From: a virus
Lineage: Duplodnaviria; Heunggongvirae; Uroviricota; Caudoviricetes
IMG/VR virus record: IMGVR_UViG_2718218131_000011
Location: 20,026-84,025 of that record
Strand: one strand, 5' to 3'
DNA length: 64,000 bases
Below are positions 10,511 through 51,699 of the stretch, in pieces. Under the pieces are notes generated by a model, which was given only the letters and a program-made list of their open reading frames with translations, did no database searches and was not told where the DNA came from. Both the position numbers and the translations under genes were made by a program. Position 1 is the stretch's first letter; each line of letters begins with the position of its first letter.

Positions 10511-11074
10511 ATGCTGAACAATAGAAATATGACTATTAATGAACTTAAAGACTGTATTCACTATGAAGTAATTGGTAGCGAGCGTCCTTTCTCTTGGCGA
10601 AAAGCAATTGTTCGCGCAATAAAACATAGAAGAGTTCGTTATTTATTTTGGTGGCGCATATCAAAATATCTTTTTGATAAAGGCGGATACAGGCGAAAGG
10701 TTGCAGGGAAAATAGAACGCTTCATTCTTGACAAATACAATGTAACCGTTCCCTTAACGGTAAATATAGGGAAAGGGTTTGACATATCTTATCTCAATGG
10801 CGTTGTTATCGCTCACAAAGTCACAATCGGTGAAAATTGTTCAATTAAGCCCGGAGTAACTATTGGACTTCGCGGGGAATTTAATGACATGGATATTGTT
10901 ATAGGAGATAATGTGACCATTGGTTGTAATGCCACCATTCTTGGTGGCAAAGTGCGTATAGGAAACAATGTCACAATAGGTGCTCATGCATTGGTATTGC
11001 ATGATATTCCTGATGATTCAACATTCATCACTAAATTTCAGTCTGAAGTTATCTGCTCGTCCTCCCGCACATAA
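10511..11074 (+). CDS. hexapeptide-repeat O-acetyltransferase (WcaF/WbbJ/LacA-like, left-handed beta-helix)
   Basis: 187 aa; repeated [LIV]-G-x-x-x-x-I hexapeptides ([16 protein letters not shown]...[34 protein letters not shown]); AT-rich gene; 3' end overlaps the tfa 3' end on the opposite strand. Confidence 0.75.
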
Positions 11075-11655
11075 CCCTGATTCATCAGCTCTGGCCATAC
11101 GATATCCGGAGCTGTACTGGTATCAATTCGACTCACTAATACTCTGTATTTTCTCCAGGAGTCCAGTTGTGAATTTTCCTCGTTTGTTGCTATTTCAAGA
11201 TTAACTGCGTCCTGCAGAATTGCGATGTTATCTGTTGCCTCCTGGATCAACCTTGCCTTTTTCTCTTCCGCTTCCCGTATCCGAAACAGTTTTTCTGCTT
11301 CCTCATCCTTCACCCAGGATACGCCGTCCCACTTCTGATACTCCCCTGCTGGCGACAACCAGGTGACATTCTCTGGTAGCGGTCCGGGTTCAGAAATAAA
11401 CAACGCGTCCCCCGATGCCACCTCATAGACCGTTTTACCACGATGGTCTTCAACAATATTCCACGATTCATTTTCACTGTTGAAAACTGCCACAAAGCCA
11501 GTAGGAATTTCCGGTGGGGCGATATCTGTAGAATTAGCTGGCAGCCCTGTATGAGGTGGAATATATGCGTCATCTTCACCAATAAACTCATTAGTTCCGG
11601 CCAGCAGGTTATAAATTTTTACTGTACGTGATTGTTCACTCATTCTGAATGCCAT
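11038..11655 (-). CDS. tail fibre assembly chaperone (Tfa; P1 U-like)
   Basis: 205 aa immediately downstream of the tail fibre gene; [23 protein letters not shown] resembles lambda/Mu Tfa family. Confidence 0.8.
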
Positions 11656-14600
11656 TATGCAAGCCTCACAATATAATTAAATGCGATGTTTTTAACGGTG
11701 TTTTCCGCGTTACCAGCAGCATTAACGGTGATGGTATGTCCATGTGAACCAATCGCAACAGAGTGCGTATGAGCGCCAATACCAACTGTATGTGCATGCG
11801 CCCCTGCACTTGCAGCAGTGCCTGATACTGAGTGGGTGTGTGCACCAGAAGAAGGCACTGTTCCATTCCCCACGACCGTGCCACTTGATGAACCATCAAG
11901 CCAGTCGAAATTCATACCTCCACTGTTTGGTCTCCTTAATGGAACGGTATGAGTATGTGCGCCAGCACTATTTGCAGTACCAGATACATTGTGGGTATGT
12001 GCACCTGTGTTATTCGTTGGTTTAGTACCGTAATCAAACGACGATGTGGTTTTCGTCCCCAAATCCGTACTGGATGCGCTGGCGCTGTGGGTGTGCGATT
12101 TAATGCCGTCCTGTTCCTGAGACAATACGGCACGACCACTGGCAGGTTTGCCCTTAATCGTCCAGCCACGCATATCAGGGATCACGCCTGACGGATAAGC
12201 GGCTGCAAGTTTCGGGTAAGCAGATTTGTCAAAAGTCTGCCCCTGCATTAGGGCATAACCAGACGGAACGGTATCTGATGGCCACGGGATTGGTGCGCCG
12301 ACTGGGTAGCTTTCTGGTGGAAGATTTTTCGAGGTATAAACTTCTGCCCAGTCTTCTTCAAAACCATAACCGTCTCTTGAAGAACGGTAGAACAGACCAC
12401 CATTTCTGTAATGCGCCTTCATCTGCAATGTCCGGCAACTTCCGACTCCGGTATAGAAGTTAACCAGAATATAGCTGTCGCCAGAGCGGGTGACATTGTA
12501 AGCGCCTGATTCGGCATTCCAGGGAACGCCACCATCCGCATCGGCATATGTATCCGTTGCCCTTCTGGCAAAAGCAGCCACATGCGCGGCGGTTAAAGTG
12601 ATATCAGTAGAACCATCAAATGGAACACCGGATATTTTTCTTGCAGTCTGAAGTTTTGTAGCAGTTGCAGCATTACCGTTCAAACTACCATTGATGCCGC
12701 CAGTAACATTGAGTCCATTACCGATCGTAACAGCACCATTGGCATTGTTAATGATAAGCGGCCTTAACCTATTATAGGTTCCTAGGCTGTTACCCGAATC
12801 GGTCAACATGAAATATGTGTTTGAACCATCGTTTCGGATAAAGAATCCGTAGTTTCCGTAGGCAATGCGCAGACCATTCGCCGATTTGGAAATAATCTCG
12901 CCAGCAGCAGTTAATCCGCCAGTTAACGCTCCTCCAGATAGTGGTAAAGCTCCGACATCAGCCGCAGTAGGCTTGTTTTTAGTGTTATACGCTCTGCGCC
13001 ATCCTGGTGAATAGCTCGTCCCGTTAAACACATAGACAAACTCCGCATTAGTGAGTGCGCCAGAGACACCTGTCGTTGTTGCCGTTGTTATACGAATCGT
13101 ATAATTGTTTGAGCTACTGCCGTTATTAAATACCTCAATAACTGCGCCAGCCAGTGGAATAATGCCGCATCCTGTTTCGCTGTCTGGTATGGATGCACTA
13201 TTTGCATACGCCCAGGCACAACGCGCTATCCATGCCTTTGCATTAAAAGCACCATTATCTCGTAGCAGAGTCACTAATTGCTCTGTTGTTATTGAAGCTC
13301 CATTATCACCTGTTACAAGCCAACCAGTAGGAGATGCCGGGCAACCAATATTTGCTGGTGACAGTGAAATATTCGCAGAACCGTCAAATGAAACCCCATT
13401 AATGGTACGCGCTGTTAGCAATTTGGTAGCCGTAGCTGCATTACCGGTTGTGTTCTGGTTACCAGCAATGTTTACACCCGGCAGATTGATATTGGCGGAG
13501 CCATCGAATGATACGCCGCCTATTGTGCGTGCTGTTTGCAGTTTTGTTGCAGTTGCAGCATTGCCAGTAGTGCTCTGATTACCTGTTTTATTCACACCTG
13601 GCAGGTCGATGTTTGCGGTACCATTAAATGAAACGCCACCAATGGTTCTTGCCGTTTGTAATTTCGTGGCAGACGCCGCATTTCCTGTTGTGTTCTGGTT
13701 GCCCGTTGTATTTACGCCCGGTATGGAGTCTTTCGATGTATAGACCTGTGCCCACTCAGACCATGCCGCATCTGTGTTATCTCTTCGGGAGCGAATGAAA
13801 ACTGGCGCATGTGCACCGCTCGTACCACTCCAGCCAATAAGCAACTCGCCCTCACCAGCAGCACTCGCACCTTTCATGTGCAATACGTTGCCATACGTGG
13901 TCGGGTAGCTATTGTTGTACGCCTCGTACATTTGAATGCCAGCAGTGCCTTGAGTAGAGCCGCTTAACGCCGTAACTCGGCCACGAGATACCAATGTATT
14001 AATGTTGATATCGCCTGAGCCATCAAACTTAACACCGTTGATGTTTCTTGCCGTCGCAAGTTTTGTCGCGGTAGCAGCATTCCCCGTGGTGTTCTGGTTA
14101 CCTGTTGTATTTACACCTGGAAGATTGATATTGGCCGAGCCATCAAATGCCACACCGCCAATCGTGCGTGCTGTTTTCAATTTCGTCGCGGTGTCGGCGT
14201 TCCCTGTCAGCGCCCCGGTGATCCCGCCGTTGAAAGTCTGGCGCGCACTCCATGTGTTAGCCGTGCTCAACAGGGGGATCTTTTCACCGCTGGTACCGAG
14301 TTCTCTTAAACCAAGGTATTGGATAACGGCCAGTGTGCTTGTTTTAGCCAGAATATCGCGACCGACTGACGTTAAATCAGTCTGCGCTACCGTATCCTTA
14401 CCAGTGAAATAAGGCAGTTTGTTTGCACCAGTCGCAAGGGCAGCGAGCGCGGTTAAAGTTGCATCCAGAGGCTGTTTGCCTGCCAGCGCATTTGTCATTG
14501 TTGTCGCAAAGTTCGGGTCATTGCCCAGTGCTGCTGCAAGCTCATTCAGAGTATCAAGAGCTTCAGGTGATGAGCCGACCAATGCAGAGATAGCAGCTCT

Positions 14601-24751: not shown

Positions 24752-24807
24752 TTAACAGATTCTACGAGTTGTCATTTGTGACAGTATGCTCGCAATCGTA
24801 GCGATTA

Positions 24808-25347
24808 CTACCACCAACTGCTAGCTTTCTTCTCTCTAGCTTTTCCTTCGCTTTGCAGTAAATCTTTACTTCCTGTAGAAATATTTCTATTTGCATCAGC
24901 CTCAGACTGAATTACATCTGTCTTAGCTGCTCTCTCCTTCAACTCCTGCTCTATAAAATCGTTTTCTCGCTGGACACGAGCCGCTTTTGCTTGCAGTTCG
25001 AGTTTCATGCTTTCGAGTTGCAGCTTGCGAAGCTCATCCTCATAAGCTTGATCTCGCTTCTTGTCATTTGCTAGCTCGGCTTCTCGTTTCGCTCTACGTT
25101 CATTTTCTGCAGCAACACGCTGTTTTTCGCGTGCAGCAGCGGCAGATGCTGCTTTTTCTCTTCTAATACGTTCAGCTTGTGCTTGTTGGCGAATAAGTTC
25201 TTTTCTGGCATCCTCAGCTTGCTGCTCTTTAGCTCGCCCTTCATTTTCCGCTTGAGCAATAGCAGCAATTTGACTTTGCAACGAGTTAGCCAAGGCAGTG
25301 CCTACACTAAACGTAGAAAAGATTAGAAATAAAATAATTTTATTCAT
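24808..25347 (-). CDS. secreted coiled-coil protein (TolA-like Ala/Glu/Arg/Lys-rich), candidate superinfection-exclusion factor
   Basis: 179 aa; signal peptide MNKIILFLIFSTFSVGTALA; long charged helical region. Confidence 0.55.
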   Translation of the reverse strand: MNKIILFLIFSTFSVGTALANSLQSQIAAIAQAENEGRAKEQQAEDARKELIRQQAQAERIRREKAASAAAAREKQRVAAENERRAKREAELANDKKRDQAYEDELRKLQLESMKLELQAKAARVQRENDFIEQELKERAAKTDVIQSEADANRNISTGSKDLLQSEGKAREKKASSWW

Positions 25348-25350
25348 AAA

Positions 25351-25863
25351 TTATTTCTTTTCTGGACAAGTAGCATTTGGCTGAATTCGAGTTTCATTAT
25401 CTTTAGTTGAAATAAGCACAGCAAGCCCCGTTGTAAACTGGCATGCTTTACCAACTTGAGTTGAAGTGAACACCTTAGTTCCTTCTTTATAAGTCAGTGA
25501 AACACCTTCAACAATTGTTTTATCACTAACCAAAGAACCAGCCGCTGCACCAAGAGCCGCACCACCAGTACCGCCAGCTACAGCACCCAGTGTCGATGTG
25601 CCTTTAACATTATAACCGGCAACGCCCCCAGCAACAGCTCCCAGTACCGCACCAAATGTCTGTGCCGCTTCTTTATTAGCTTTATTATCAACTTTCACTT
25701 TAGCTGGAAGCACAGAGATAATATTGACTGTCTTTGTTTCCTGCTTCGAATTCAATTGAGCGGTATCATAAACATCGGCAGCATAATCAGCACCGCTAGA
25801 TTGACACCCAGAAAGAAGAATTGCAGATACAACAAGAGCGCATAAAGTATACTTTTTAGACAT
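25351..25863 (-). CDS. outer-membrane lipoprotein with glycine-zipper motif
   Basis: Lipobox LLSGC; GAVLGAVAGGVAGYN...GAVAGGTGGAALGAAAG glycine zipper; start taken at MSKKYT rather than the ORF-track start at 25872. Confidence 0.55.
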   Translation of the reverse strand: MSKKYTLCALVVSAILLSGCQSSGADYAADVYDTAQLNSKQETKTVNIISVLPAKVKVDNKANKEAAQTFGAVLGAVAGGVAGYNVKGTSTLGAVAGGTGGAALGAAAGSLVSDKTIVEGVSLTYKEGTKVFTSTQVGKACQFTTGLAVLISTKDNETRIQPNATCPEKK

Positions 25864-26152
25864 AAGAATCATCCCAGAAAAACAAAAACCGGCGAGAAGT
25901 TACCACGAGAACGGAAAGTAAACAAGAATACTCCCATTGACTTATATCAATTAATCAACTTTTTATAAGCTATCCCTAACTTATTGTGTATAGCTGAAAA
26001 GTCAGAGACAAGTTCACCATCTGCATTATTTCTTAAGGTAATAGTTTATTGCTAACTTAATTTATGTATCGACTATTGATATCCATCTTAAAGTTACAAT
26101 ATCCCTCTGCATTATTTTTCATCACAAATAATATATCTATTGCACGACACTC

Positions 26153-26170
26153 ATCTGCTCTAATAAATTT
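26153..26170 (+). promoter_or_regulatory. C1 repressor operator-like site upstream of the immI region (Op51-like)
   Basis: ATCTGCTCTAATAAATTT versus consensus ATTGCTCTAATAAATTT. Confidence 0.5.
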
Positions 26171-26349
26171 GTATTTTTAAGTCGCGAATGCTATCTTTTC
26201 GCATCATATTGACCTTTTAATCGTTCAGGCTTATAGTTCCGCCGTCGTAGCAAATTCTGCGACCGGGTTTAGCAGCCTGAATACTTACGCGGACAACCGC
26301 AGATTTCCGATATTGCGGTATTTTTGTGTCCGTAAACCACGTTACGCCC

Positions 26350-26440
26350 GAATTATGGTGGGGCGTGATGGGGAGGCTTCGGCCTGCTGGTTTCGTAAGT
26401 GCCAGTCTGCTAACCCCGTCACGTCCTGCCACCTGTTTAG
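26350..26440 (+). ncRNA. c4: probable c4-like antisense immunity RNA region (boundaries approximate)
   Basis: Structured segment between the operator and icd-ant; CTGCTAA in 26403-26419 is complementary to TTAGCAG at 26434-26442 near the icd leader; placement by P1 synteny. Confidence 0.3.
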
Positions 26441-28728: not shown

Positions 28729-29574
28729 ATGCTGGCTAAAGTCACTTTCCTGAGCTGTATAACGATGAGCGATTTTACTTTTTCCGGCTATGAATTGGCC
28801 TGCTTTGTAACACACTCCGGTCTATCCCGTAGCGCCGGGCATATCCTGTCGCAATGTGCAAATCTCGCGGCAACAACCAGTGAATACTTCATTCACAAGC
28901 CTCACCGCCTGATCGCGGCAGAAACTGGTTATAGCCAATCAACCGTCGTTCGTGCATTCCGTGAAGCTGTAAACAAAGGAATTCTGTCTGTAGAGATTGT
29001 TATCGGCGATCACCGTGAACGTCGCGCTAACCTGTACCGGTTTACGCCATCCTTTTTGGCCTTCGCACAACAAGCCAAAAATGCGCTGATTGAAAGCAAA
29101 TTAAAGATCTCTTCAGCGGCAACCAAGGTTAAAGCTGTTCTCGCTAAGACATTGGCTTTATTTAATTTTTTATCCACACCCCCATGTCAAAATGATACCC
29201 CCTCCCCCTGTCAGGATGACGTGGCAATAAAGAATAAGAAGTCACAAGTTAAAAAAACAAAAAGATCAGTTTCCGGCGGTGCCGGAACGACCAGACTCAA
29301 AAAATTGACTTCATGGATCGCTGAGGCAAAAGCAAAGGCTGACAATCTGCGGTTATCCAAAAAACGCGCTCAAAAACATGAGTTCAAGCAGAAAGTAGAG
29401 GCGGCAGCGCGGAAATATGCTTACCTGAAGAACAAGCGTTCTCCTGATATTGGCGGGGTATCAAACTTCGATAATCTGCCGCATTGCATGACGGTAAACG
29501 AAGCTCTTAATGCGGTTTTAGCCAAAAATAAAGATAACGAACAATGGGGTATACCGGCAGGATTCAGAGGGTGA
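28729..29574 (+). CDS. repL: RepL lytic replication protein
   Basis: 281 aa (P1 RepL size), directly downstream of kilA in the same operon. Confidence 0.65.
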   Translation: MLAKVTFLSCITMSDFTFSGYELACFVTHSGLSRSAGHILSQCANLAATTSEYFIHKPHRLIAAETGYSQSTVVRAFREAVNKGILSVEIVIGDHRERRANLYRFTPSFLAFAQQAKNALIESKLKISSAATKVKAVLAKTLALFNFLSTPPCQNDTPSPCQDDVAIKNKKSQVKKTKRSVSGGAGTTRLKKLTSWIAEAKAKADNLRLSKKRAQKHEFKQKVEAAARKYAYLKNKRSPDIGGVSNFDNLPHCMTVNEALNAVLAKNKDNEQWGIPAGFRG

Positions 29575-29870
29575 TAGATTGCTCTAATCTGGAGTCACCT
29601 GGCGTTTTCAGTTTGAGGTCGGAGATGCAATCTGATTTTTTACAGTTAGCGATCGCTTTTGCAGGATATGTTTGTATTGGCTTCTGTGTATACATGATCA
29701 GCCGAAAAATGCTTGTCGATATCGACCGCAAAGAACAAGCAGAGGAGATCTTAGTATGGATTTTCTTTGGCGTGGTCTGGCCATTAGGGATCATGTTTGC
29801 TGCAACATTTCTTCTGATGTGGATATTCACCCTTCCAGGTGATTTCTATAGAAAAAAAGCCAGACATTGA
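29544..29870 (+). CDS. small membrane protein (RlfA-like position)
   Basis: 108 aa with two hydrophobic helices. Confidence 0.4.
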   Translation: MGYTGRIQRVIDCSNLESPGVFSLRSEMQSDFLQLAIAFAGYVCIGFCVYMISRKMLVDIDRKEQAEEILVWIFFGVVWPLGIMFAATFLLMWIFTLPGDFYRKKARH

Positions 29871-29939
29871 TACAATCGTTGCGGGTGCTTGAGGCTATCT
29901 GCTTCAGGCATTACCCGAAAAGCAGATAGAAGAAAGCCC

Positions 29940-30015
29940 CAGATAACATTACGCGTCCTGCAAGACGCTTAACATTAATCTGAGGCCATATCTATGCTTA
30001 GCATACGTAGATTAG
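29940..30015 (-). ncRNA. sok: probable Sok-like antisense RNA of the hok locus (boundaries approximate)
   Basis: Opposite-strand TTGACC / spacer / TAATCT promoter-like elements facing the mok/hok leader, with a GCGTC..GACGC hairpin; placed by analogy to hok/sok loci. Confidence 0.3.
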
Positions 30016-30200
30016 CCTCTTACCGACCAAAAGGTCAAGGAGAAGCAGGCTATGAAGCAGCAAAAAGCGATGTTAATCGCTCTGATCGTCATCTGTTTAA
30101 CCGTCATTGTGACGGCACTGGTAACGAGGAAAGACCTCTGCGAGGTACGAATCCGAACCAGCCAGACGGAGGTCACTGTCTTCACAGCCTACGAATCTGA
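29994..30200 (+). CDS. mok: Mok-like overlapping reading frame
   Basis: 68-aa ORF overlapping hok in another frame, as in hok/mok/sok loci. Confidence 0.4.
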   Translation: MLSIRRLASYRPKGQGEAGYEAAKSDVNRSDRHLFNRHCDGTGNEERPLRGTNPNQPDGGHCLHSLRI

Positions 30201-30207
30201 AAGGTAA
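30052..30207 (+). CDS. hok: Hok/Gef-family type I toxin (51 aa, absent from ORF track)
   Basis: Manual translation MKQQKAMLIALIVICLTVIVTALVTRKDLCEVRIRTSQTEVTVFTAYESER; AAGGAG RBS 7 nt upstream; near-identical in pattern to HokC/Gef as recalled. Confidence 0.8.
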   Translation: MKQQKAMLIALIVICLTVIVTALVTRKDLCEVRIRTSQTEVTVFTAYESER

Positions 30208-30323
30208 GAGACCTGGCGGGGAGAGATCCCCGTCACTCTTCGTGTGTCAGGTATCCTCAATGCACCCTTTCCTCTCCAAATAAAAAAGCTCCCGAAGGAG
30301 CTTTAAAATACAAGGGATGACTC

Positions 30324-30833
30324 TTAATCCCACTCAATCCAGTTGTAGACGATACGAAGTGACGGGCGCACAGCGGCAGTCACATCTTCGGTACTAAAGT
30401 CGATTGCATCACTGTAGATTTTGCAGTCCAACATTTCAATTGTTGTAGCAGCTTTTGTCACAGCGTTAACCCCGGAAGATTTGGATTCAGGGGTCGCAGC
30501 CATCGTGATATCAACATAGTCCTTCGCCGCAATGCGATCTTTAATGAACTGAAGAATATCGCCTTCGATAGTCTCCACGCACTGGACCTGGATTTCCCCA
30601 GAGTTTCGAATTGGACCGTGCTGGTTGAACTTCACACCATTCGGACCATAGTCCTCCACATCCTCGCGGGTCATTTCAGGAATTTGCGACGTGCGAACCA
30701 GTACGCTGATATCTTCATGGCCTGCAAAAGTGAGCTGGAATTCAGAAGATACCAGTCGTTCGCCTTTGGCCGCGTTGGCAGTATAGCGGCCCTTAATAAA
30801 TTTACGGTTTCCCTTAGTGTTATTGTGCCCCAT
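30324..30833 (-). CDS. tail/baseplate structural protein, possibly tube-like
   Basis: 169-aa ORF in the late morphogenetic block; weak resemblance to gp19-type tube C-terminus. Confidence 0.45.
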   Translation of the reverse strand: MGHNNTKGNRKFIKGRYTANAAKGERLVSSEFQLTFAGHEDISVLVRTSQIPEMTREDVEDYGPNGVKFNQHGPIRNSGEIQVQCVETIEGDILQFIKDRIAAKDYVDITMAATPESKSSGVNAVTKAATTIEMLDCKIYSDAIDFSTEDVTAAVRPSLRIVYNWIEWD

Positions 30834-35780: not shown

Positions 35781-35865
35781 GGTGAAATCGTGGCGATTTC
35801 ACCTTGAAATTTTAGAGTAATTTACTTTAAAAACAGTCAGTTAATAGTGAAATTTGAATGGCGAA
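35781..35865. other. parS: parS partition site
   Basis: Heptamer box A (ATTTCAC/GTGAAAT) and hexamer box B (TCGCCA/TGGCGA) copies flanking an AT-rich IHF-like core, directly downstream of parB. Confidence 0.75.
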
Positions 35866-35868
35866 AGT

Positions 35869-36870
35869 TTAAGGCTTCGGCTTTTTATCGAGGCTCTTTC
35901 TAAGGATATGCCCAATCATCCTGTCGAGTTCTTCCTGTAACTCTTTTGAGAGTCGATTAAACTCATAAGAAAATGCACGGCCTTTCACGCGCTTCCTTGC
36001 AAAGCGATCCTTGTCCTCAAATTTCCATAATTCAGTAACTACGGACTTATCTTTAGAACCTTTATCCGTGAGTAGTGAGGCTTCCTTTGTTATCAAGCGC
36101 AGGATTTTATTTTTAACTTCATCTTCGGCCATTTCTTCAATGGATAAGATGTCGTTTATTTCCGGGGATATGTTTTGAATAAGCTGATCAAACTCTAAAT
36201 TCTTGTTCCCCATTTCGTCGCCAACAGCACAAAGCGTTTTGTAGTCCGAAAAGGTTAATTCCGACTGCACAGGGAAAAGGGCGACTAATTCTTCCGGAGC
36301 ACTCGCTGCCTGGAGAGCACGCGTGACCTTCGCCTGAGACAGCCCTTCTTTGGCTGCAATATCCTTCTGACTCATCCCATCATTTTTCATTCGCATCAAA
36401 CGCAGACCTATTTCTCGAATGCTGTGCTGCAATGCTGTCTGAACGTCTTTCGCTAAATTTTGCGCTTCCTGAACGCTGATCTCCTGGTCCGTGACTAAAA
36501 CCCGCAACCCTACGTTCTCTAAGATGGCAGAAGCTCGACGCCGGGAACCATCCAAAATTTCAATTTTCCCTGTAGCCCGTCTAACACCTATTGCAGGGTA
36601 AAATTGCTGATGCTTAATAGTGCTTCGGATACTTTTTAATGATTTTGGCGTAAGAGATGCCTGGTCACGCCCGTTGTTATGCTGATCAACAAAGGTATCG
36701 CTTTCTACCTGGTTCGGAGGTATTACCTCTTCAATAAATGTGGCCTGGCGACCAGTTGATAACTTGAATACCTGCTCGACTCGATCGCCAGAGGCTGAAG
36801 AACTATCAAATCCGCTTAATATTGAAGGATTAAGGGTTCGCCCAATTGTTGGTCTGTTTTTCTTTGACAT
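35869..36870 (-). CDS. parB: ParB partition protein
   Basis: 333 aa; MSKKNRPTIGRTLNPSILSGFDSSS... matches P1 ParB as recalled; follows parA. Confidence 0.9.
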   Translation of the reverse strand: MSKKNRPTIGRTLNPSILSGFDSSSASGDRVEQVFKLSTGRQATFIEEVIPPNQVESDTFVDQHNNGRDQASLTPKSLKSIRSTIKHQQFYPAIGVRRATGKIEILDGSRRRASAILENVGLRVLVTDQEISVQEAQNLAKDVQTALQHSIREIGLRLMRMKNDGMSQKDIAAKEGLSQAKVTRALQAASAPEELVALFPVQSELTFSDYKTLCAVGDEMGNKNLEFDQLIQNISPEINDILSIEEMAEDEVKNKILRLITKEASLLTDKGSKDKSVVTELWKFEDKDRFARKRVKGRAFSYEFNRLSKELQEELDRMIGHILRKSLDKKPKP

Positions 36871-36886
36871 GGGGGTTTCTTACTCC

Positions 36887-38083
36887 TCAGTTAGATCTGA
36901 TAAATTCAATACGGTCAAAAACTGCTTTAGCAAAATCTTCCGCGGCAATTCGCGCGTTCTTCAATGCATCAGCACTACCAACATACGTTGCCGGGTTAGC
37001 TGAAATAACAGTGTCAAAAGACTCGCCGCAACGTTCAAAACCGTCAAGGCGAGGGAGGACGACATCGAGCATATCCCCACCGAACACTTCTTTAGCCAGG
37101 CTATGGCAATACTTATGATCTGCCTTGTTACTCAACTTGGACATAAAACCAATGTTAGTCGCAAGCTGGCACTCGCAGCCTTCATCCGAAATGAGTTTCA
37201 CCAACTCAGGAAGGCGGGCAACGTATTTAAGCGATGAGTGGAAATCGACAGTTGCTGGCGGCAGAGGTGTAAACAGTATATTGGCCGAGGCCAAAGCATT
37301 TTTCAGGAAGGCGTCAAGGTGAGGACCACTATCAACGAGGATAAAATCATAATCGCTCTTCAGCTTATCAATCACATTTTCTTTCAGGACAGCATGGATG
37401 TTCTGACCCGGTAGATGCTCATTGCACAGCTCTCTCCAATCGGATGCAATAAAGGCATCGTCAATCGACGCAGGCATAACGTCAACCCCAGGTACAACAG
37501 AAGGAACAATAAACTCCTCTAACAGCTCTTCACGGCTTACATTCTGCAACATAGCCTGTGCAGATGTTGCGTTTACGATACCAATAGAGTGTTTATGGCT
37601 TAAAAACATCGTTGCTGAAGATTGCGGATCAAGGTCAATAACCAGAATCCTTAAATCTTCCATCAGAAGATGAGGGTGGGCACGCATTGCATGCGCCAGA
37701 GAAACCGTCGATACAGTTTTTGACACACCGCCTTTAAGATTGGAGATGAAAATCACATACGCTTCGCTGTAGCGATCCCGGTATTTTGGCACTCCGCGAT
37801 GTTCATATATGTCAATGATGTTCTGAATTGACATCGCATATTTCATTGAAGAGCCAGCAGGACGTTTATCGAAAACATAACCCTTTTCTTCCATTTCACT
37901 TACGGCATAGTCAACGTTCGCTCGAGTCAGTAGAGGCAATTTTGCCAGTGCCGCTTTCGCATAGACCTGGTAAAACTCGTTCGCGTGTAGCTCATCCTTT
38001 TGCAACTGTACTTGTTCAGTCAGAACATTGAGCATTCTGTTTGCTCTTTGAGCAACCTTGTGAAGCTGGCTGGAATCACTCAT
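36887..38083 (-). CDS. parA: ParA partition ATPase
   Basis: 398 aa; Walker A KGGVSKT; N-terminal HTH extension typical of type Ia ParA. Confidence 0.9.
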   Translation of the reverse strand: MSDSSQLHKVAQRANRMLNVLTEQVQLQKDELHANEFYQVYAKAALAKLPLLTRANVDYAVSEMEEKGYVFDKRPAGSSMKYAMSIQNIIDIYEHRGVPKYRDRYSEAYVIFISNLKGGVSKTVSTVSLAHAMRAHPHLLMEDLRILVIDLDPQSSATMFLSHKHSIGIVNATSAQAMLQNVSREELLEEFIVPSVVPGVDVMPASIDDAFIASDWRELCNEHLPGQNIHAVLKENVIDKLKSDYDFILVDSGPHLDAFLKNALASANILFTPLPPATVDFHSSLKYVARLPELVKLISDEGCECQLATNIGFMSKLSNKADHKYCHSLAKEVFGGDMLDVVLPRLDGFERCGESFDTVISANPATYVGSADALKNARIAAEDFAKAVFDRIEFIRSN

Positions 38084-38356
38084 CGAAAGTCATCCTTTAT
38101 GCTGTATTTTTGAATTTAATTAAAAATGCTGCATAAAATAATAATGTATGCGTAGATGCTTGTACATAGCATTCTCTGCATGTTTACTCCTTTGCCAAGT
38201 GTGTCACAACATGCTTTGGCATCCTCCTCGTATAAAGGACGCGGATTTCTTCTATGTTCAGGTTGTAGCCTAAATCATTTTGGTGATTTCCTGCTTCAAC
38301 GGGCTGCCAGGCTTCACTCTCTATCAACTGGTGTGAACGGCTTGCCCGGCAGCTTC

Positions 38357-45758: not shown

Positions 45759-45911
45759 CAGGGGTTTCGTCATGGTTAGCGACTTTGCGGCGGTTTAGCG
45801 AAAAACGCCGTAAACCCTCGCCTAATGCGGGCGGGTATATAAGGCGAAAAGCCAACAGGGCTTTAAAAAAATCATTACGGTGTTAGCATAAAAAGCCTGT
45901 ATCAATGAGCG

Positions 45912-47087
45912 GTGACTATGTTAAGAGCAACAAAAGTACGCATTTACCCGACACCAGAACAGGCAGAGTACCTCAATGCCCAGTTCGGTGCAGTGCGCTT
46001 TGCGTACAACAAAGCTCTTCACATCAAAAAACATGCTTACCAGCGACATGGAGTAAATTTAAGTCCGCGTAACGATCTGAAACCGCTGCTTGCAGTGGCA
46101 AAGAAATCCCGCAGGTATGGATGGCTTAAAGAATATGATTCTATTGCGTTGCAACAGGCGGTAATTAATCTTGATGTGGCATTTTCCAACTTTTTTAATC
46201 CGAAGCTGAAAGCGCGGTTCCCGACGTTTAAACGTAAACACGGAAAACAATCGAGCTATCACTGTGTCGGGATTAAGGTGCTGGATAATGCCATCAAAAT
46301 CCCAAAACTGTCCCTAATAGAAGCACGCCTTCACCGTGAACTTCATGGAAAGCTGAAAAGCATCACTATCACCTGTTCAGCAACGGGGAAATACTATGCT
46401 TCAATTCTCTGTGATGATGGCATGGAAGCTCCGGCAAAACCCACGTTGATATCAACAGTTACTGGCCTAGATATGGGATTATCGCACTTTGCCATCAAGT
46501 CTGATGGGGTAAAAATTGCAAATCCCCGCCATCTCATCAATGCCAGCCGTAATCTGCGACGCAAACAAAAAGCCTTATCCCGCAAGCAAAAGGGAAGCGC
46601 GAATCGTAAAAAGGCCACAATCCGTCTGGCAGCGTTACACGAACGGGTGGCTAATGCCCGTGCTGATTTTCAACACAAGCTCTCTCGTGCAATTGTTGAC
46701 GAAAACCAAGCGGTAATTGTCGAGATGCTGAAAACAGCCAACATGATGAAAAACCACAATCTGGCAAGAGCGATAGGTGATGCAGGCTGGCATAGCTTCA
46801 TCACAAAGCTGGAGTACAAGGCAGCGGAAAAAGGCGTTCACCTAGTAAAACTCGACCAGTGGTTTGCCAGTTCGAAAGCCTGCTATTGTTGTGGTTACAA
46901 AATGCCGGAAATGCCGCTTCATAAACGCATCTGGCGATGCCCTGAATGTGGAGCAGAGCACGACCGCGATATCAATGCGGCACTCAACATCCGGCAAAAA
47001 GGAATACTGGAACTACAGGCGGCGGGACTCGTCGTCTCCGCCCATGGAGGCCAGCGTAAATCCGTCGCACAGACGGTTGTGGCATGA
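45912..47087 (+). CDS. tnpB: TnpB (OrfB) RNA-guided nuclease-type transposon protein, IS200/IS605 family
   Basis: 391 aa; N-terminal MLRATKVRIYPTPEQ...YNKAL; C-terminal zinc finger CYCCG...CPECG with RuvC-like region. Confidence 0.85.
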   Translation: MTMLRATKVRIYPTPEQAEYLNAQFGAVRFAYNKALHIKKHAYQRHGVNLSPRNDLKPLLAVAKKSRRYGWLKEYDSIALQQAVINLDVAFSNFFNPKLKARFPTFKRKHGKQSSYHCVGIKVLDNAIKIPKLSLIEARLHRELHGKLKSITITCSATGKYYASILCDDGMEAPAKPTLISTVTGLDMGLSHFAIKSDGVKIANPRHLINASRNLRRKQKALSRKQKGSANRKKATIRLAALHERVANARADFQHKLSRAIVDENQAVIVEMLKTANMMKNHNLARAIGDAGWHSFITKLEYKAAEKGVHLVKLDQWFASSKACYCCGYKMPEMPLHKRIWRCPECGAEHDRDINAALNIRQKGILELQAAGLVVSAHGGQRKSVAQTVVA

Positions 47088-47776
47088 GAAGTGGGAAGCC
47101 TCGCCCGACAGGGCGGGGAGCAGTCACAAACTGACCATTAAAGTAAATGCAAACGATGATCTGATGATGGTTGCGGCCTAAGAAGCCTGACACCACGGGG
47201 TTGTCCCCGTCTGTGTATTAGGGAACGAGGAGGCATAACAGGCAGGGGCGCTGGTTTGATTAACCAGATGAACGAGAAGGGGCCATCTTCTGGTCAGCGT
47301 CCTTACCTGTTACGTCCTTTTTCATTCAGCGTAACAGCCGGTTCTTAACAGCCTTTGGGTAGAGTTCCTCGTATTTACGAGTATATTCCGTCATGCTGAA
47401 GGCGCTAATCACGCTGGAAGCTAGGGGGGGATCCCCTGTTACCGAATTGCAGCCAGGGCGCGGGTGTAGTGGTTTATTGATTGTTACGGCGCATTCTGGG
47501 CTGTACTAAATTTCTGCGCCTAATACTACTACACTTGCCGTTTACTGATGTGTGGTATGTTGCATATGGGCAACTGCAAAATGGCATCTGAATCGATCGC
47601 AGTTTGGCATTCGAATCGATCATGATTTGGCATCCATCTCCGATCACAGTTTGGCATCACAATCGATCACGATTTGGCATGCTTCCGATCATTGATTGGC
47701 ATCCTGCCAGTCACTCCGGGAATTAACTCTTTTCACCACAGTCTCCATTGCCGTGTTTAAACCAGTGGAGACGTCA

Positions 47777-49342
47777 ATGTCCAGAAAGAGAAAATCCAGG
47801 AGCACTATGGAAACCTGTTTTAAGATTCTTCAGCTCAAGTTCGACAAGAAGCTGACTAACCGTTGTATCGGACTGACGTTACACATCAGCGCCTCAACCG
47901 TTTTTGAGGTTCTTGCCCGCTTCAAAGCCTCTTCTCTGTCATGGCCATTACCTGCTGATATATCCCATGACACGCTGGAGAAACTCATTTTTCCGCCCAA
48001 AGACACCTTTGCATCAGAGCTTGTAATGCCTGACATGTTGTACCTCGATACGGAAATGAGAAAACCAGGTGTGACGCGGCAACTGTTGTGGATGGAATAC
48101 AAGGCACAGGCGGGTAACAAAGCGATGGGATACTCGCACTTCTGCCGTTGCTACCGGGAGTGGAAAAAAACGCGACGTCTCTCCATGCGCCAGGAGCATC
48201 GTGCCGGCGAAAAGCTTTTTATCGACTTCTGTGGTCCTACGGTTCCTGTTATTAATCCGGACACCGGTGAGATACGCCGCGTGGCAATCTTCGTGGCCGT
48301 AATGGGGGCGTCCAACTATACCTACGTTGAAGCGTGCGAAGGTCAGGACATGATGTCATGGTTAAATGCCCACAGCCGTTGCCTGACCTTCCTGGGCGGC
48401 GTACCGAAGCTGCTCATCCCCGATAACCTCAGAAGCGCAGTGAAAAAGGCCGATCGATATGAGCCTGTCATCAACGACAGTTATCAGGCACTGGCTGAGC
48501 ACTATGGCACGGTTATCATCCCGGCCCGACCACGCAAACCTAAAGATAAACCAAAAGCAGAAAACGGCGTCCTCATCGTCGAACGATGGCTTCTTGCCCG
48601 CATCCGTAATGAAACCTTCCACACGCTCAGGGCGCTGAATGCGCGCCTTAGGGAGTTACTGACAGACATGAATAACCGGCCAATGAAGGGGTACGGCAAT
48701 CAAACCCGTGCAGAACGCTTCCGCATACTGGATGCGCCAGCACTCTCTCCGCTGCCTCTGGCACCTTATGAATACACGGAATACAAAGCTGTGAAGGTTG
48801 GCCCTGACTACCACGTTGAATATGCCCGTCACTGGTACTCCGTTCCACACGAACTGGTCGGTCAGCGTCTGTCACTGAAGGCGGGGCAGTCGGTGGTACA
48901 GCTCTGGCACAAGGGGCAGTGTGTGGCGCAACATCCGCGCAGCACACATGAATATAAACACACAACCAATCCGCTTCACATGCCAGAGCGCCACCGGCAG
49001 CACGGGACATGGACACCGGAACGCCTGATCGAGCAGGGAAAACGTACGGGCCCGTCCACAGGCCGGGTGGTTGAATCCATGCTGAAGGCAAAACCCCATC
49101 CGGAACTGGCTTATCGTGCAGTTCTGGGGCTGCTGGCACTTCAGAAAAAATACGGCCCGGAACGGCTGGAAAAGGCCTGTTACGTTGCCCTGCACTATAA
49201 CGCCCCTGACAGACGCTTTATCGACAATCTGCTGCGTCACCATCGGGAGAACCTGGAGCTTCCATTATCCCGCCAGGGCGAACAACATCCGGCATATGCT
49301 TCAGAGCATGAAAACCTGCGTGGTCCGGGCTACTACCACTGA
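47777..49342 (+). CDS. istA: IS21-family transposase IstA
   Basis: Start at MSRKRK with GGAG RBS; HTH N-terminus and DDE-type core. Confidence 0.85.
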   Translation: MSRKRKSRSTMETCFKILQLKFDKKLTNRCIGLTLHISASTVFEVLARFKASSLSWPLPADISHDTLEKLIFPPKDTFASELVMPDMLYLDTEMRKPGVTRQLLWMEYKAQAGNKAMGYSHFCRCYREWKKTRRLSMRQEHRAGEKLFIDFCGPTVPVINPDTGEIRRVAIFVAVMGASNYTYVEACEGQDMMSWLNAHSRCLTFLGGVPKLLIPDNLRSAVKKADRYEPVINDSYQALAEHYGTVIIPARPRKPKDKPKAENGVLIVERWLLARIRNETFHTLRALNARLRELLTDMNNRPMKGYGNQTRAERFRILDAPALSPLPLAPYEYTEYKAVKVGPDYHVEYARHWYSVPHELVGQRLSLKAGQSVVQLWHKGQCVAQHPRSTHEYKHTTNPLHMPERHRQHGTWTPERLIEQGKRTGPSTGRVVESMLKAKPHPELAYRAVLGLLALQKKYGPERLEKACYVALHYNAPDRRFIDNLLRHHRENLELPLSRQGEQHPAYASEHENLRGPGYYH

Positions 49343-49358
49343 CAGAAGGAACAACAGT

Positions 49359-50114
49359 ATGAGTGATAACCTGTTAAACAAACTGACCCAACTGAAACTC
49401 CCGGCGATGGCCGGGAGCCTGATACGGCAGCGGGAAACGCCTCAGACCTACGACGAACTGTCGTTCGAGGAAAGGCTGACGCTGCTGGTTGATGACGAGC
49501 TTCTGAGCAGGGAAAACAGCCGTGTGGCACGGTTGAGAAAAAATGCCGGCCTGAAATACCAGGCAACACCGGAAGGGCTGCGCTATCCGGCCTCAAGAGG
49601 TCTGCGGGCTGAACAGATGAGAGAACTGCTGAACGGCCACTACATAACCCACAGGAAAAACCTGCTGATAACCGGTCCGACAGGATGTGGCAAGAGCTGG
49701 ATAGCCAATGCGCTGGGCGAACAGGCATGTCGACAGAAACACAGCGTCCGGTACTGTAGAACCGGGCGATTACTGGAACAACTGGCTCAGGGACGTGTTG
49801 ATGGCAGCTGGCTGAAATATCTGAAACAGTTGCAAAAAATACAGGTTCTAATCCTGGACGATCTGGGGCTGGAACAGTTAAGTAACGCCCAGTGTAATGA
49901 CCTTCTGGAGCTCATAGAGGATCGTTACGGACAAAGCAGCACGATAGTGGTAAGCCAGTTCCCGGTAGATAAATGGCATGGTCTGATGGAGAACCCAACA
50001 ACAGCAGATGCCATCCTGGACAGACTGGTACATAACTCACACCGGGTGGTCCTTCAGGGAGAGTCACTGAGGAAAAATCCCCCGGTAGTGGAAAGCAGCG
50101 AAAAAACGCGTTAA
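49359..50114 (+). CDS. istB: IS21-family helper ATPase IstB
   Basis: Start MSDNLLNKLTQLKLP with AAGGA RBS; Walker A GPTGCGKS; Walker B VLILDDLG. Confidence 0.85.
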   Translation: MSDNLLNKLTQLKLPAMAGSLIRQRETPQTYDELSFEERLTLLVDDELLSRENSRVARLRKNAGLKYQATPEGLRYPASRGLRAEQMRELLNGHYITHRKNLLITGPTGCGKSWIANALGEQACRQKHSVRYCRTGRLLEQLAQGRVDGSWLKYLKQLQKIQVLILDDLGLEQLSNAQCNDLLELIEDRYGQSSTIVVSQFPVDKWHGLMENPTTADAILDRLVHNSHRVVLQGESLRKNPPVVESSEKTR

Positions 50115-50577
50115 AAAGCGGTAGAAAAAGTTAAGTTCCCGGTTGATCGAATGGATGCGAATCGCTGATCGGACTTCGATGCCAATCCGTGATCGAATAG
50201 AGCGGAATACGCAGGCAACACACTCAAGCCTGATGCAGCACGGTCAGGTAGGGGACGCCGACCTAATGTCTCGCCCTGCAAGGGCGGACGAAAGTAGATC
50301 ACTATTCCGCGCAGCTATTTAGAAAGAACAGGTATTGAATTACCTGGAGAACAACTTACTTACGTTTCCGCCACACCTTCGCTAGTTACTTTATGATGAA
50401 TGATGGTAATATTCTGGTATTGTAACGAGTGCTCAGATATACTTACATCTAAATAACAATGATATATGTTCAATTTAACCTTGAATATTTTGTAATGTTA
50501 CACGACTTTAAAATTTAGAAGAAGAGGATTCGGTTGAATCCGATATTAAATCTGAGACAGGAATATAAGGTTACACG

Positions 50578-51513: not shown

Positions 51514-51699
51514 CATAAAGAAACATAGGCTAGTAGCGATGAAGTGCGGTAAAAATGGCTAAAACTAGATAAGTAATGGCAATCTGTGCCAATGAGTAAA
51601 TAACACAACCTATTAGATCTGCATTTATTTTTCAAAGGGATCATAATCGCACAGCCACCGGTTCAAGCCCGGTAGGGGACACCTTATTTGGTAGTTGTA

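What the first reader, a model, noticed from the sequence alone, without database searches (positions are those of the whole stretch)
29940..30260. hok/mok/sok type I toxin-antitoxin locus missed by the ORF track
Manual translation between rlfA and the late operon gives a 51-aa Hok/Gef-family toxin (MKQQKAMLIALIVICLTVIVTALVTRKDLCEVRIRTSQTEVTVFTAYESER) with a strong RBS, overlapped by a 68-aa mok-like frame, and opposite-strand promoter-like elements for a Sok antisense RNA. As far as I recall, P1 itself relies on phd-doc and does not carry hok, so this would be an additional maintenance module.
Basis: partly seen in the sequence, partly recalled or inferred. Interest (0 to 1): 0.55.

Follow-up and report, generated by a model that had tools for sequence, protein, structure and literature searches.

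The report
hok/sok killer locus in P1-like plasmid
The flagged stretch is a complete, textbook hok/mok/sok toxin-antitoxin locus that replaces three genes of reference phage P1; the same cassette is already annotated in hundreds of P1-like phage-plasmids, so it is real but ordinary.

Summary
Window 30052-30207(+) encodes the quoted 51-aa peptide, which scores 73 bits against Pfam HOK_GEF (cutoff 22). It is overlapped by a 68-aa mok frame (29994-30200), and its leader scores 115 bits against Rfam RF01794 (gathering score 59).

All regulatory parts of the R1 paradigm are present:
- a 5' tac box (29883-94) that pairs with a 3' fbi box (30255-67), and this pairing covaries across genera;
- a ucb box that sequesters the mok SD;
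- an antisense Sok gene (about 30002 to 29932, minus strand) with a terminator hairpin.

The upstream gene is repL, not rlfA. A 693-bp cassette (29589-30281: an 81-aa membrane ORF plus hok/sok) replaces P1's rlfA-rlfB-pmgF (1826 bp). A sequenced P1 genome has no hok anywhere, so the locus is cargo relative to P1.

It is not new. The cassette is 99-100% identical in at least 260 of about 506 repL-bearing PLSDB plasmids, where it is annotated "HokD". It is therefore commoner than P1's own allele (99 plasmids). The hokD-type module occurs in 4017 of 5426 complete E. coli genomes, and Venturini et al. 2019 already noted the substitution.

The likely function is post-segregational killing; phage exclusion is the main rival. 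Interest is low.

The parts
29578..29588 (+). Left junction. It keeps the first 11 nt (ATTGCTCTAAT) of P1's C1 operator Orlf/Op55. Homology with P1 ends at 29588.
   Evidence: Local BLAST breakpoints, P1 annotation of Orlf at 51575-51591, motif position. Whether the half-operator still binds C1 is unknown.
29589..30281 (.). 693-bp cassette that replaces the 1826-bp rlfA-rlfB-pmgF segment of P1.
   Evidence: no DNA similarity to P1. It is 99-100% identical in at least 260 PLSDB plasmids and 6 phage records.
29625..29870 (+). 81-aa hydrophobic ORF of unknown function (PHROG 3772). It is specific to P1-like phages and is not part of the hok module. The mechanical ORF list extends it to 108 aa from 29544.
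   Evidence: PGAP calls the 81-aa form, WP_069723463.1. PHROG 3772 E=5.6e-54, with no Pfam, NCBIfam or PADLOC hit. tblastn finds it only in punaviruses, including a 44%-identical homologue in SJ46.
29849..29876 (+). Putative hok promoter: -35 TAGAAA, 16-nt spacer, TG-extended -10 TACAAT.
   Evidence: Promoter scan. 933W (TAGAAT) and R1-type (TATGAT) have a -10-like hexamer at the same distance from the conserved 5' end. Inferred, not shown.
29883..30057 (+). hok mRNA 5' leader, from the 5' end to the hok AUG.
   Evidence: Rfam RF01794 'sok', 114.9 bits against a gathering score of 59, full model 1-157, on the + (sense) strand.
29883..29894 (+). tac (translational activator) box GGGUGCUUGAGG at the mRNA 5' end.
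   Evidence: It pairs with fbi in the MFE structure of the full-length RNA. The pairing is conserved with compensatory changes across genera.
29934..29940 (+). ucb / anti-SD box (AAGCCCC). It pairs with the mok SD in the full-length fold and with tac in the 5' fragment and the Rfam consensus.
29932..30002 (-). Sok antisense RNA gene, about 71 nt, transcribed from 30002 towards 29932. It has a free 5' tail, a long hairpin (29987-29935) and a U-rich tail, and it covers the mok SD and start codon.
   Evidence: Projection of the annotated sokW of phage 933W. Fold dG -30.6 kcal/mol, z -4.7. The ends are inferred.
30009..30038 (-). Putative Sok promoter: -35 TTGACC (30038-30033), 18-nt spacer, -10 TAATCT (30014-30009).
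   Evidence: It aligns with the R1-type block TTGCGC...GGTAAGAGGCTATCCT; coordinates. The generic scan did not report it because the -10 matches only 3 of 6 bases.
29994..30200 (+). mok reading frame (68 codons) with a GAGG SD at 29982-29985. It overlaps hok in another frame.
   Evidence: The start aligns with the annotated mokW of 933W. PHROG 37205 E=5e-21.
30052..30207 (+). hok toxin gene (51 aa, HokD/HokW subtype), with SD AAGGAG at 30037-30042.
   Evidence: Pfam PF01848 at 73.1 bits. An identical protein is annotated hokD, WP_023156625.1.
30214..30235 (+). Stable 3' hairpin, the presumed 3' end of the processed mRNA. It contains the G4-N6-C4 palindrome GGGGAGAGATCCCC (30218-30231).
   Evidence: Folds. 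The palindrome contains the reverse complement of the IS186B direct repeat GGATCTCTCC reported at this slot in pSvP1 (PMC6906374).
30255..30267 (+). fbi (fold-back inhibition) box CCUCAAUGCACCC, complementary to tac (12 bp with one bulged U).
   Evidence: Homology with lambdoid hokW loci ends exactly here.
30285..30304 (.). Backbone hairpin AAAGCTCC-TTCG-GGAGCTTT shared with P1. It is the terminator of the bplB operon on the minus strand and the probable (weak) stop for hok mRNA on the plus strand.
   Evidence: Terminator scan, minus strand only. P1 homology resumes at 30282. Its role on the plus strand is inferred.

Best explanation
The locus is an intact hok/mok/sok type I toxin-antitoxin module of the hokD/hokW subtype. 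It is carried as accessory cargo in the variable repL-bplB slot of a P1-like phage-plasmid.

Proposed mechanism, inferred from the R1 paradigm (summarised in PMC9841398) and fitted to the parts found here:
1. A modest promoter (29849-76) makes a stable mRNA of about 390-425 nt. Its 5' tac box (29883-94) is clamped to the 3' fbi box (30255-67), and the ucb box (29934-40) masks the mok SD, so the RNA is neither translated nor bound by Sok.
2. Slow 3' trimming back to the hairpin at 30214-35 removes fbi. tac can then pair with ucb, the mok ribosome-binding region opens, and hok is translated by coupling to mok.
3. While the prophage-plasmid is present, the short-lived Sok RNA (about 30002 to 29932, minus strand) pairs with this processed RNA, and the duplex is destroyed by RNase III.
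4. In a cell that loses the plasmid, Sok decays first, Hok is made and inserts into the inner membrane, and the cell dies. This is post-segregational killing.

The presence and integrity of every sequence element is shown here. Transcription, processing, toxicity and stabilisation are inferred.
For: Peptide: Pfam HOK_GEF 73 bits against a cutoff of 22, and 40% identity to R1 Hok over its full length.

Leader RNA: Rfam RF01794 at 114.9 bits against 59.

Full-length fold: dG -154.9 kcal/mol, z = -9.0, with tac paired to fbi and the mok SD paired to ucb.

tac/fbi covariation: the pairing is found 45-56 nt after the hok stop in 27 of 30 other hok loci. U-A becomes C-G and G-C becomes A-U in Photorhabdus, G-C becomes A-U in Citrobacter, and G-U variants also occur. 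Two of the exceptions are leaderless hokD copies with no tac.

Conformational switch: the tac/ucb 'open' fold costs +12.9 kcal/mol in the full-length RNA but only +1.8 kcal/mol once fbi is removed.

Sok: the annotated sokW, mokW and hokW of 933W and the R1-type locus align element by element, and the Sok hairpin has z = -4.7.

Integrity and selection: the cassette is 99-100% conserved in at least 260 plasmids.

Context: relatives with the same cassette are single-copy IncY phage-plasmids that also carry phd-doc.
Against: No expression or phenotype data exist for this copy. The Sok -10 (TAATCT) is weak against the consensus and was not flagged by the generic scan. The + strand has no good intrinsic terminator after fbi. 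The unconstrained MFE of the truncated RNA keeps the mok SD closed. Most hokD-type copies sit in chromosomal prophages, where a plasmid-stabilising role does not apply. [quoted passage not shown] Related P1-like plasmids already carry par and phd-doc, so any added stabilisation may be small.
Confidence: 0.85

Rival explanations
1. It is the same intact hok/sok locus, but its selected role in P1-like elements is protection against other phages or competing elements. When an invading phage shuts off host transcription, or when the element is displaced by an incompatible hok-less P1 relative, Sok decays and Hok kills the cell. Stabilisation against random loss would be secondary.
For: The alternative occupant of the same slot in reference P1, rlfA/rlfB, matches the PADLOC candidate defence pair PDC-M04A/B (E=1e-95 and 1e-51), so the slot may be a defence-type hotspot. 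hok/Sok has a reported role in phage defence (reference 15 cited in preprint 10.1101/2025.08.07.668861; from my own knowledge this is T4 exclusion by R1 hok/sok, Pecota and Wood 1996). hok is four-fold enriched in prophages. Related P1-like plasmids already have par and phd-doc for maintenance.
Against: Hok has no PADLOC model hit. The survey found hok not enriched near defence systems, 12% against 9.4% expected. PDC-M04 is only a candidate system, and no paper in the library mentions it. The other slot occupants (the 171-aa and 198-aa ORFs and pmgF) have no defence hits.
Confidence: 0.25
2. It is a silent relic: a hok locus that looks intact but is no longer expressed or toxic, as is the case for several chromosomal hok copies.
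For: The K-12-type hokD keeps only the 3' 59% of the module and lacks the leader. Sister elements show decay in this slot: 673R5 and RCS47 keep the leader up to about 30014-30017 but have lost the hok ORF, and pSvP1 has IS186B inserted in the 3' hairpin. The Sok -10 is weak.
Against: Every element is present and in register here, including compensated long-range pairs. The ORF is uninterrupted and scores 73 bits. The cassette is 99-100% identical across hundreds of independent isolates from humans, pigs, cattle and poultry. A toxin gene without a working antitoxin would not persist, and a dead one would be expected to accumulate lesions.
Confidence: 0.07
3. It is a chance small ORF in an intergenic spacer with no function.
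For: None beyond its small size (51 aa).
Against: Pfam E=1.3e-20, Rfam E=6e-27, fold z = -9, and homologues in 4737 of 5426 E. coli genomes.
Confidence: 0.01

Closest known systems
hokW/mokW/sokW of Stx phage 933W and the other lambdoid/Rac-prophage hokD-type loci
   Same: The DNA is 87-91% identical from the mRNA 5' end (29880) to the fbi box (30267). The order and spacing of tac, ucb, Sok, mok, hok, 3' hairpin and fbi are the same, and the peptide differs at a few C-terminal residues.
   Different: The flanks are unrelated. The promoter region upstream of about -13 and the sequence after fbi differ, so the -35 element and the terminator are supplied by the P1-like context. The host element is an extrachromosomal phage-plasmid rather than an integrated lambdoid prophage.
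hok/sok (parB) of plasmid R1, the experimentally dissected paradigm
   Same: The architecture is the same, and the aligned landmarks are the tac box GCTTGAGGCT, the ucb box AGCCCC, the mok start, the Sok promoter block GGTAAGAGGCTA, the hok SD CAAGGAGAAG and its start, and the CEIR/YES motifs of the peptide. The predicted tac/fbi closure and the ucb/mok-SD pairing are the same. The mechanism is as summarised in PMC9841398.
   Different: Only 40% peptide identity. The leader lacks R1's longer first hairpin and has a longer Sok-target hairpin. The fbi box differs in sequence and position and is followed by no dedicated terminator. The Sok -35 is closer to consensus (TTGACC against TTGCGC) and the -10 is weaker (TAATCT against TATCCT).
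hokD (relF) of E. coli K-12
   Same: The peptide is nearly identical, which is why PGAP names this gene hokD.
   Different: The K-12 copy retains only the 3' 59% of the module, with no tac, ucb, Sok or mok start. The locus here is complete.
phd-doc of phage P1, the classical P1 addiction module
   Same: It has the same proposed biological outcome: death of cells that lose the prophage-plasmid. It co-occurs with this cassette in the relative pET6.1-IncY.
   Different: It is a type II protein-protein system with a different mechanism. It lies about 50 kb away on the P1 map and outside this window. phd-doc is core in P1-like elements (PMC9603915), whereas hok/sok is an alternative allele of a variable slot.

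Membership tests
[quoted passage not shown] | A roughly 50-aa Hok/Gef toxin with an N-terminal transmembrane segment and the conserved C-terminal periplasmic motif (Pfam PF01848). | tested here: met
   PF01848 at 73.1 bits against a cutoff of 22, covering model positions 1-42 of 42. The NCBIfam Hok models hit below their strict cutoffs: 46.5 bits against 73 for the subfamily model. The identical protein is named HokD in RefSeq.
[quoted passage not shown] | A mok reading frame that starts upstream of hok with its own SD and overlaps almost all of hok in another frame. | tested here: met
   ORF 29994-30200 of 68 codons, with SD GAGG at 29982-85. Its start aligns with the annotated mokW and with the R1-type mok ATG.
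[quoted passage not shown] | hok mRNA leader with the conserved fold (Rfam RF01794; the model lies on the sense strand of hok). | tested here: met
   114.9 bits against a gathering score of 59, E=6e-27, full-length model match at 29883-30057(+).
[quoted passage not shown] | Long-range 5' tac / 3' fbi pairing that closes the full-length mRNA. | tested here: met
   A 12-bp helix between 29883-94 and 30255-67 in the MFE structure, z = -9.0. The helix is kept at the same position in 27 of 30 other hok loci, with double-sided compensatory changes at three pairs.
[quoted passage not shown] | ucb masks the mok SD in the full-length RNA, and an alternative tac/ucb stem becomes favourable after 3' truncation. 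| tested here: met
   The mok SD bases G29984 and G29985 pair with ucb C29938 and C29937 in the full-length fold. The tac/ucb stem forms in the 5' fragment and in the Rfam consensus. The enforced tac/ucb fold costs +12.9 kcal/mol in full-length RNA against +1.8 kcal/mol in truncated RNA. This is a thermodynamic prediction only; real processing is not testable here.
[quoted passage not shown] | A cis-encoded antisense Sok RNA of about 65-70 nt with its own promoter, complementary to the mok translation-initiation region. | tested here: inconclusive
   The sequence features are present by positional homology with the annotated sokW and the R1-type locus, and the hairpin plus U tail has z = -4.7. 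The -10 matches only 3 of 6 bases and the generic scan missed it. The transcript itself cannot be shown with these tools.
[quoted passage not shown] | Hok toxicity and post-segregational killing or plasmid stabilisation. | not testable with these tools
   Requires experiments.
   NC_005856 has rlfA-rlfB-pmgF between the breakpoints that correspond to window 29588 and 30282. P1 genome OP279344 has no tblastn hit to Hok (E > 2) and no blastn hit to the cassette.
Catalogued anti-phage defence systems (PADLOC-DB v2) | The protein matches a model of a known or candidate defence system. | tested here: not met
   No PADLOC hit for Hok or the 81-aa ORF. By contrast, P1 rlfA and rlfB hit PDC-M04A and PDC-M04B.

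The most novel reading that the evidence does not exclude
The repL-bplB slot of P1-like phage-plasmids may be a two-state (or multi-state) hotspot for cell-killing or defence cargo. In that reading, hok/sok (about half of natural elements) and the candidate defence pair rlfA/rlfB = PDC-M04 (about a fifth, including laboratory P1) are functionally interchangeable alleles. hok/sok would then serve mainly in abortive infection or in competition between incompatible P1 relatives rather than in simple plasmid stabilisation. That would also recast P1's long-unexplained 'replication-linked' rlfA/rlfB genes as defence genes.
Probability: 0.2. Interest if true: 0.4.

Novelty: already known. Interest (0 to 1): 0.15.

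Why it matters
It matters little for discovery. hok/sok is among the best-understood toxin-antitoxin systems, and this exact copy is already annotated in hundreds of public records. The analysis has three practical uses. First, it corrects the gene map of this window: the upstream gene is repL, and rlfA/rlfB/pmgF are replaced, not adjacent. Second, it shows that laboratory P1 carries the minority allele of this slot, so P1 is not representative of natural P1-like phage-plasmids, many of which carry resistance genes and may be harder to cure because they hold both phd-doc and hok/sok. Third, it flags that P1's rlfA/rlfB resemble a candidate defence system, which may deserve its own follow-up.

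Tried and rejected
1. I assumed the window was plasmid pET6.1-IncY because the 771-bp cassette is 100% identical. This was rejected: the surrounding 8.8 kb is only 98.5% identical and the window ends are not collinear with that plasmid. Its phd-doc therefore cannot be attributed to this element.

2. I looked for phd/doc in the window and found none. This is uninformative, because the window stops at P1 coordinate ~80.55 kb and phd starts at ~81.6 kb.

3. The generic sigma-70 scan for a Sok promoter reported nothing on the minus strand. The promoter is assigned only by homology.

4. The unconstrained MFE of the 3'-truncated mRNA did not give the open conformation. Constrained folding was needed to show the energetic shift.

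5. I rejected reading the Rfam 'sok' hit as the antisense RNA itself. The hit is on the hok sense strand and covers the whole leader up to the hok AUG. The weak minus-strand hit (21 bits, 29940-29792) is far below the gathering score and reflects hairpin symmetry.

6. Pfam, NCBIfam and PADLOC gave nothing for the 81-aa ORF, the mok frame, or the 171-aa and 198-aa ORFs that occupy the slot in 673R5 and RCS47.

7. Literature searches found no paper that discusses hok in P1-like phage-plasmids by name and none that mentions PDC-M04. The P1 genome paper (PMC523184) is not held.

8. The weak CRISPR-DR46, ceN48 and sbrA Rfam hits in the region are sub-threshold chance matches to the terminator and leader hairpins.

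Full report
**What is in the sequence.** It also contains a 68-codon ORF at 29994-30200(+) in another frame. An AAGGAG Shine-Dalgarno lies at 30037-42. The peptide matches Pfam HOK_GEF over the whole model (73.1 bits, cutoff 22, E=1.3e-20) and PHROG 251 'MokW-like host killing' (E=4e-31). The upstream 175 nt (29883-30057, + strand) match Rfam RF01794 'sok' end to end at 114.9 bits, against a gathering score of 59. This model lies on the hok sense strand, so it describes the hok mRNA leader and not the antisense RNA itself.

**Anatomy.** I aligned the window with two references: the annotated hokW/mokW/sokW locus of phage 933W, and an R1-type hok locus fetched from an IncFII plasmid, whose peptide is 100% identical to R1 Hok as I recalled it. 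These alignments place every classical element.
- A promoter-like site, TAGAAA-16 nt-(TG)TACAAT, lies at 29849-76. 933W and the R1-type locus have a -10-like hexamer at the same distance from the conserved 5' end.
- The conserved RNA begins at GGGUGCUUGAGG (tac, 29883-94).
- The ucb box AAGCCCC is at 29934-40.
- The mok SD GAGG is at 29982-85 and the mok ATG at 29994.
- On the minus strand, TTGACC (30038-33), 18 nt and TAATCT (30014-09) align with the R1-type block TTGCGC...TATCCT.
- The projected Sok RNA runs from about 30002 to 29932. It folds into a long hairpin with a U-rich tail and a free 5' end (dG -30.6 kcal/mol, z -4.7).
- Downstream of hok there is a stable hairpin (30214-35) and the box CCUCAAUGCACCC (fbi, 30255-67).
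- Homology with the lambdoid hokW loci starts at about 29880 and stops right after fbi at 30267. The mobile unit is therefore essentially the transcript itself.

**RNA logic.** The 388-nt RNA 29883-30270 has an MFE of -154.9 kcal/mol (z = -9.0 against shuffles). In that structure tac pairs with fbi (12 bp, one bulge) and the mok SD pairs with ucb. This is the closed, untranslatable full-length state described for R1 (summarised in PMC9841398).

I then took 30 other hok loci: 28 non-redundant ones found by a genome scan (Escherichia, Shigella, Kluyvera, Citrobacter, Pantoea, Photorhabdus), plus 933W and the R1-type locus.
- In 27 of the 30, the best partner of the tac box in the 3' UTR sits 45-56 nt after the hok stop.
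- The pairing is kept through double-sided changes. Pair 4 changes from U-A to C-G and pair 12 from G-C to A-U in Photorhabdus. Pair 11 changes from G-C to A-U in Citrobacter. G-U intermediates occur elsewhere.
- Two of the exceptions are leaderless hokD copies, which have no tac.

Forcing the alternative tac/ucb stem costs +12.9 kcal/mol in the full-length RNA. It costs only +1.8 kcal/mol in an RNA trimmed to the 3' hairpin. That is the direction of shift the R1 processing model requires. The unconstrained MFE of the trimmed RNA still stays closed, so the switch is shown to be feasible, not demonstrated.

- The 281-aa ORF upstream (28729-29574) is RepL, not RlfA. The downstream minus-strand gene (30324-30833) is bplB.
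- Against reference P1 (NC_005856), homology stops at window 29588, inside the C1 operator Orlf. Only ATTGCTCTAAT of that operator survives.
- Homology resumes at 30282, just before the shared terminator hairpin behind bplB.
- Between these points P1 has 1826 bp (rlfA, rlfB, pmgF), and the window has 693 bp. Those 693 bp are an 81-aa hydrophobic ORF (29625-29870) plus the hok/sok locus. The ORF is PHROG 3772, is of unknown function, and is found only in P1-like phages.
- A complete P1 genome (OP279344) contains phd and doc but has no Hok by tblastn (best E > 2) and no similarity to the cassette.

The window is collinear with P1 from about 16.5 to 80.55 kb and ends about 1 kb before phd. Whether this particular element has phd-doc cannot be read from the window. 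A relative with the identical cassette, pET6.1-IncY, does have it, although the window is not that plasmid. phd-doc is also reported as core in P1-like elements (PMC9603915).

**How common it is.** The 771-bp stretch 29560-30330 is matched at 80% coverage or more in 260 PLSDB plasmids. Most matches are 99-100% identical, in 90-118-kb non-mobilizable IncY-type plasmids of E. coli, Salmonella, Klebsiella and Shigella. PGAP annotates the gene there as 'type I toxin-antitoxin system toxin HokD' or 'Hok/Gef family protein'. The repL gene marks about 506 plasmids, and P1's own rlfA-rlfB-pmgF segment is in only 99. The hok cassette is thus the commonest state of this slot, and laboratory P1 carries a minority allele. 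Six phage records carry the cassette as well, and one labels it 'MokW'. The hokD-type module is ubiquitous: 4017 of 5426 complete E. coli genomes have a near-full-length copy, mostly chromosomal. K-12 retains only the 3' 59%.

**Literature.** PMC9603915 lists rlfA-rlfB-pmgF as one of eight variable regions of P1-like phage-plasmids. Venturini et al. [quoted passage not shown] A recent survey of 44,248 Hok homologues reports enrichment in prophages and no enrichment near defence systems, and it does not mention phage-plasmids or P1 (10.1101/2025.08.07.668861). I found no paper that names hok/sok in P1-like elements or tests its role there.

**Mechanism and rivals.** The best-supported reading is a live R1-type post-segregational killing module that adds to the par and phd-doc systems of a single-copy prophage-plasmid. 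Sequence integrity, compensated RNA pairs and near-perfect conservation across hundreds of isolates support activity. Expression, processing and toxicity are inferred.

The main rival keeps the same molecular mechanism but a different selected role, namely phage exclusion or competition between incompatible P1 relatives. One point prompts this rival: the alternative occupants of the slot in P1, rlfA and rlfB, hit the PADLOC candidate defence pair PDC-M04A/B at E=1e-95 and 1e-51. Three points argue against it. Hok has no PADLOC model. The other slot occupants have no defence hits. The survey found no association between hok and defence systems.

A 'silent relic' reading is unlikely here, although decay does occur in sister elements. 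673R5 and RCS47 keep the 81-aa ORF (partly, in RCS47) and the hok leader up to about 30014-30017, but another ORF replaces hok itself. pSvP1 has IS186B inserted with the direct repeat GGATCTCTCC, whose reverse complement lies in the G4-N6-C4 palindrome of the hok 3' hairpin (30218-31).

**Verdict.** It is wrong about the neighbouring genes and about how unusual the locus is. This is a fully canonical member of a thoroughly studied family, in a position where public annotation and one paper already record it. Novelty: already known. Interest: low.

Noticed in passing
L002 (NC_005856) 2244-3412 = P1 rlfA and rlfB. They are absent from the window, and their place is window 29589-30281.: P1's 'replication-linked function' genes rlfA (DUF3800) and rlfB match the PADLOC candidate phage-defence pair PDC-M04A/B very strongly (E=1e-95 and 1e-51). 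No paper in the library mentions PDC-M04. The repL-bplB slot may be a defence/addiction hotspot.
   Followed up: partly
L003 (phage 673R5) 2090-3276 and L004 (RCS47) 3443-4467, equivalent to window 29755-30017: These P1-like phages keep the 81-aa ORF (only its 3' half in RCS47) and the first ~135 nt of the hok leader, including the Sok coding region and its -10 but not its -35. They then switch, at about 30014-30017, to an unrelated minus-strand ORF (171 or 198 aa, no Pfam or PADLOC hit). This looks like a hok-less derivative of the cassette. RCS47 additionally has ISEc46 upstream.
   Followed up: partly
window 30218-30231: The hok 3' hairpin contains GGGGAGAGATCCCC. The 10-bp direct repeat GGATCTCTCC reported for the IS186B insertion at this slot in plasmid pSvP1 (PMC6906374) is its reverse complement. 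The hok 3' UTR is therefore a natural IS186 target that would separate fbi from the rest of the mRNA.
   Followed up: partly
window 29578-29594: The left recombination breakpoint falls inside P1's C1 operator Orlf (Op55). Only ATTGCTCTAAT remains, followed by unrelated sequence. C1 control of whatever is transcribed rightwards from repL (here the 81-aa ORF) may be lost.
   Followed up: no
window 29625-29870: An 81-aa hydrophobic ORF (PHROG 3772, unknown function) is confined to P1-like phages. A 44%-identical homologue sits in the same slot of Salmonella phage SJ46. Its stop codon lies just before the -10 hexamer of the putative hok promoter.
   Followed up: partly
window 9689-9958: There are Rfam hits to group II intron domains D1-D4 (RF02001 at 96.9 bits, RF01998 at 46.8 bits). 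They lie inside a stretch (9573-14169) that has no counterpart in P1, in the lydC/cin/tail-fibre variable region. A group II intron appears to have inserted into this P1-like element.
   Followed up: no
window 26231-26436: The C4 antisense RNA (RF01695) and its a1/b1 targets (RF03163) of the P1 immI region are present, as expected for a P1-like element.
   Followed up: no
window 45799-51722 and the whole window: ARAGORN finds no tRNA genes in the window, although P1 has three (Asn, Thr, Met) at 65.4-67.3 kb. The corresponding region of the window does not align with P1. Other non-P1 stretches are 484-2347, 24780-26155 (sim region), 35814-38353 (the par region, possibly P7-type) and 52209-53430.
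   Followed up: no
Rfam RF01794 model against window 29883-30057: The Rfam family named 'sok antitoxin' matches the hok sense strand and spans the whole hok leader up to the hok AUG. Automatic 'sok' ncRNA annotations based on this model would be on the wrong strand and about 2.5 times too long for the real antisense RNA.
   Followed up: partly
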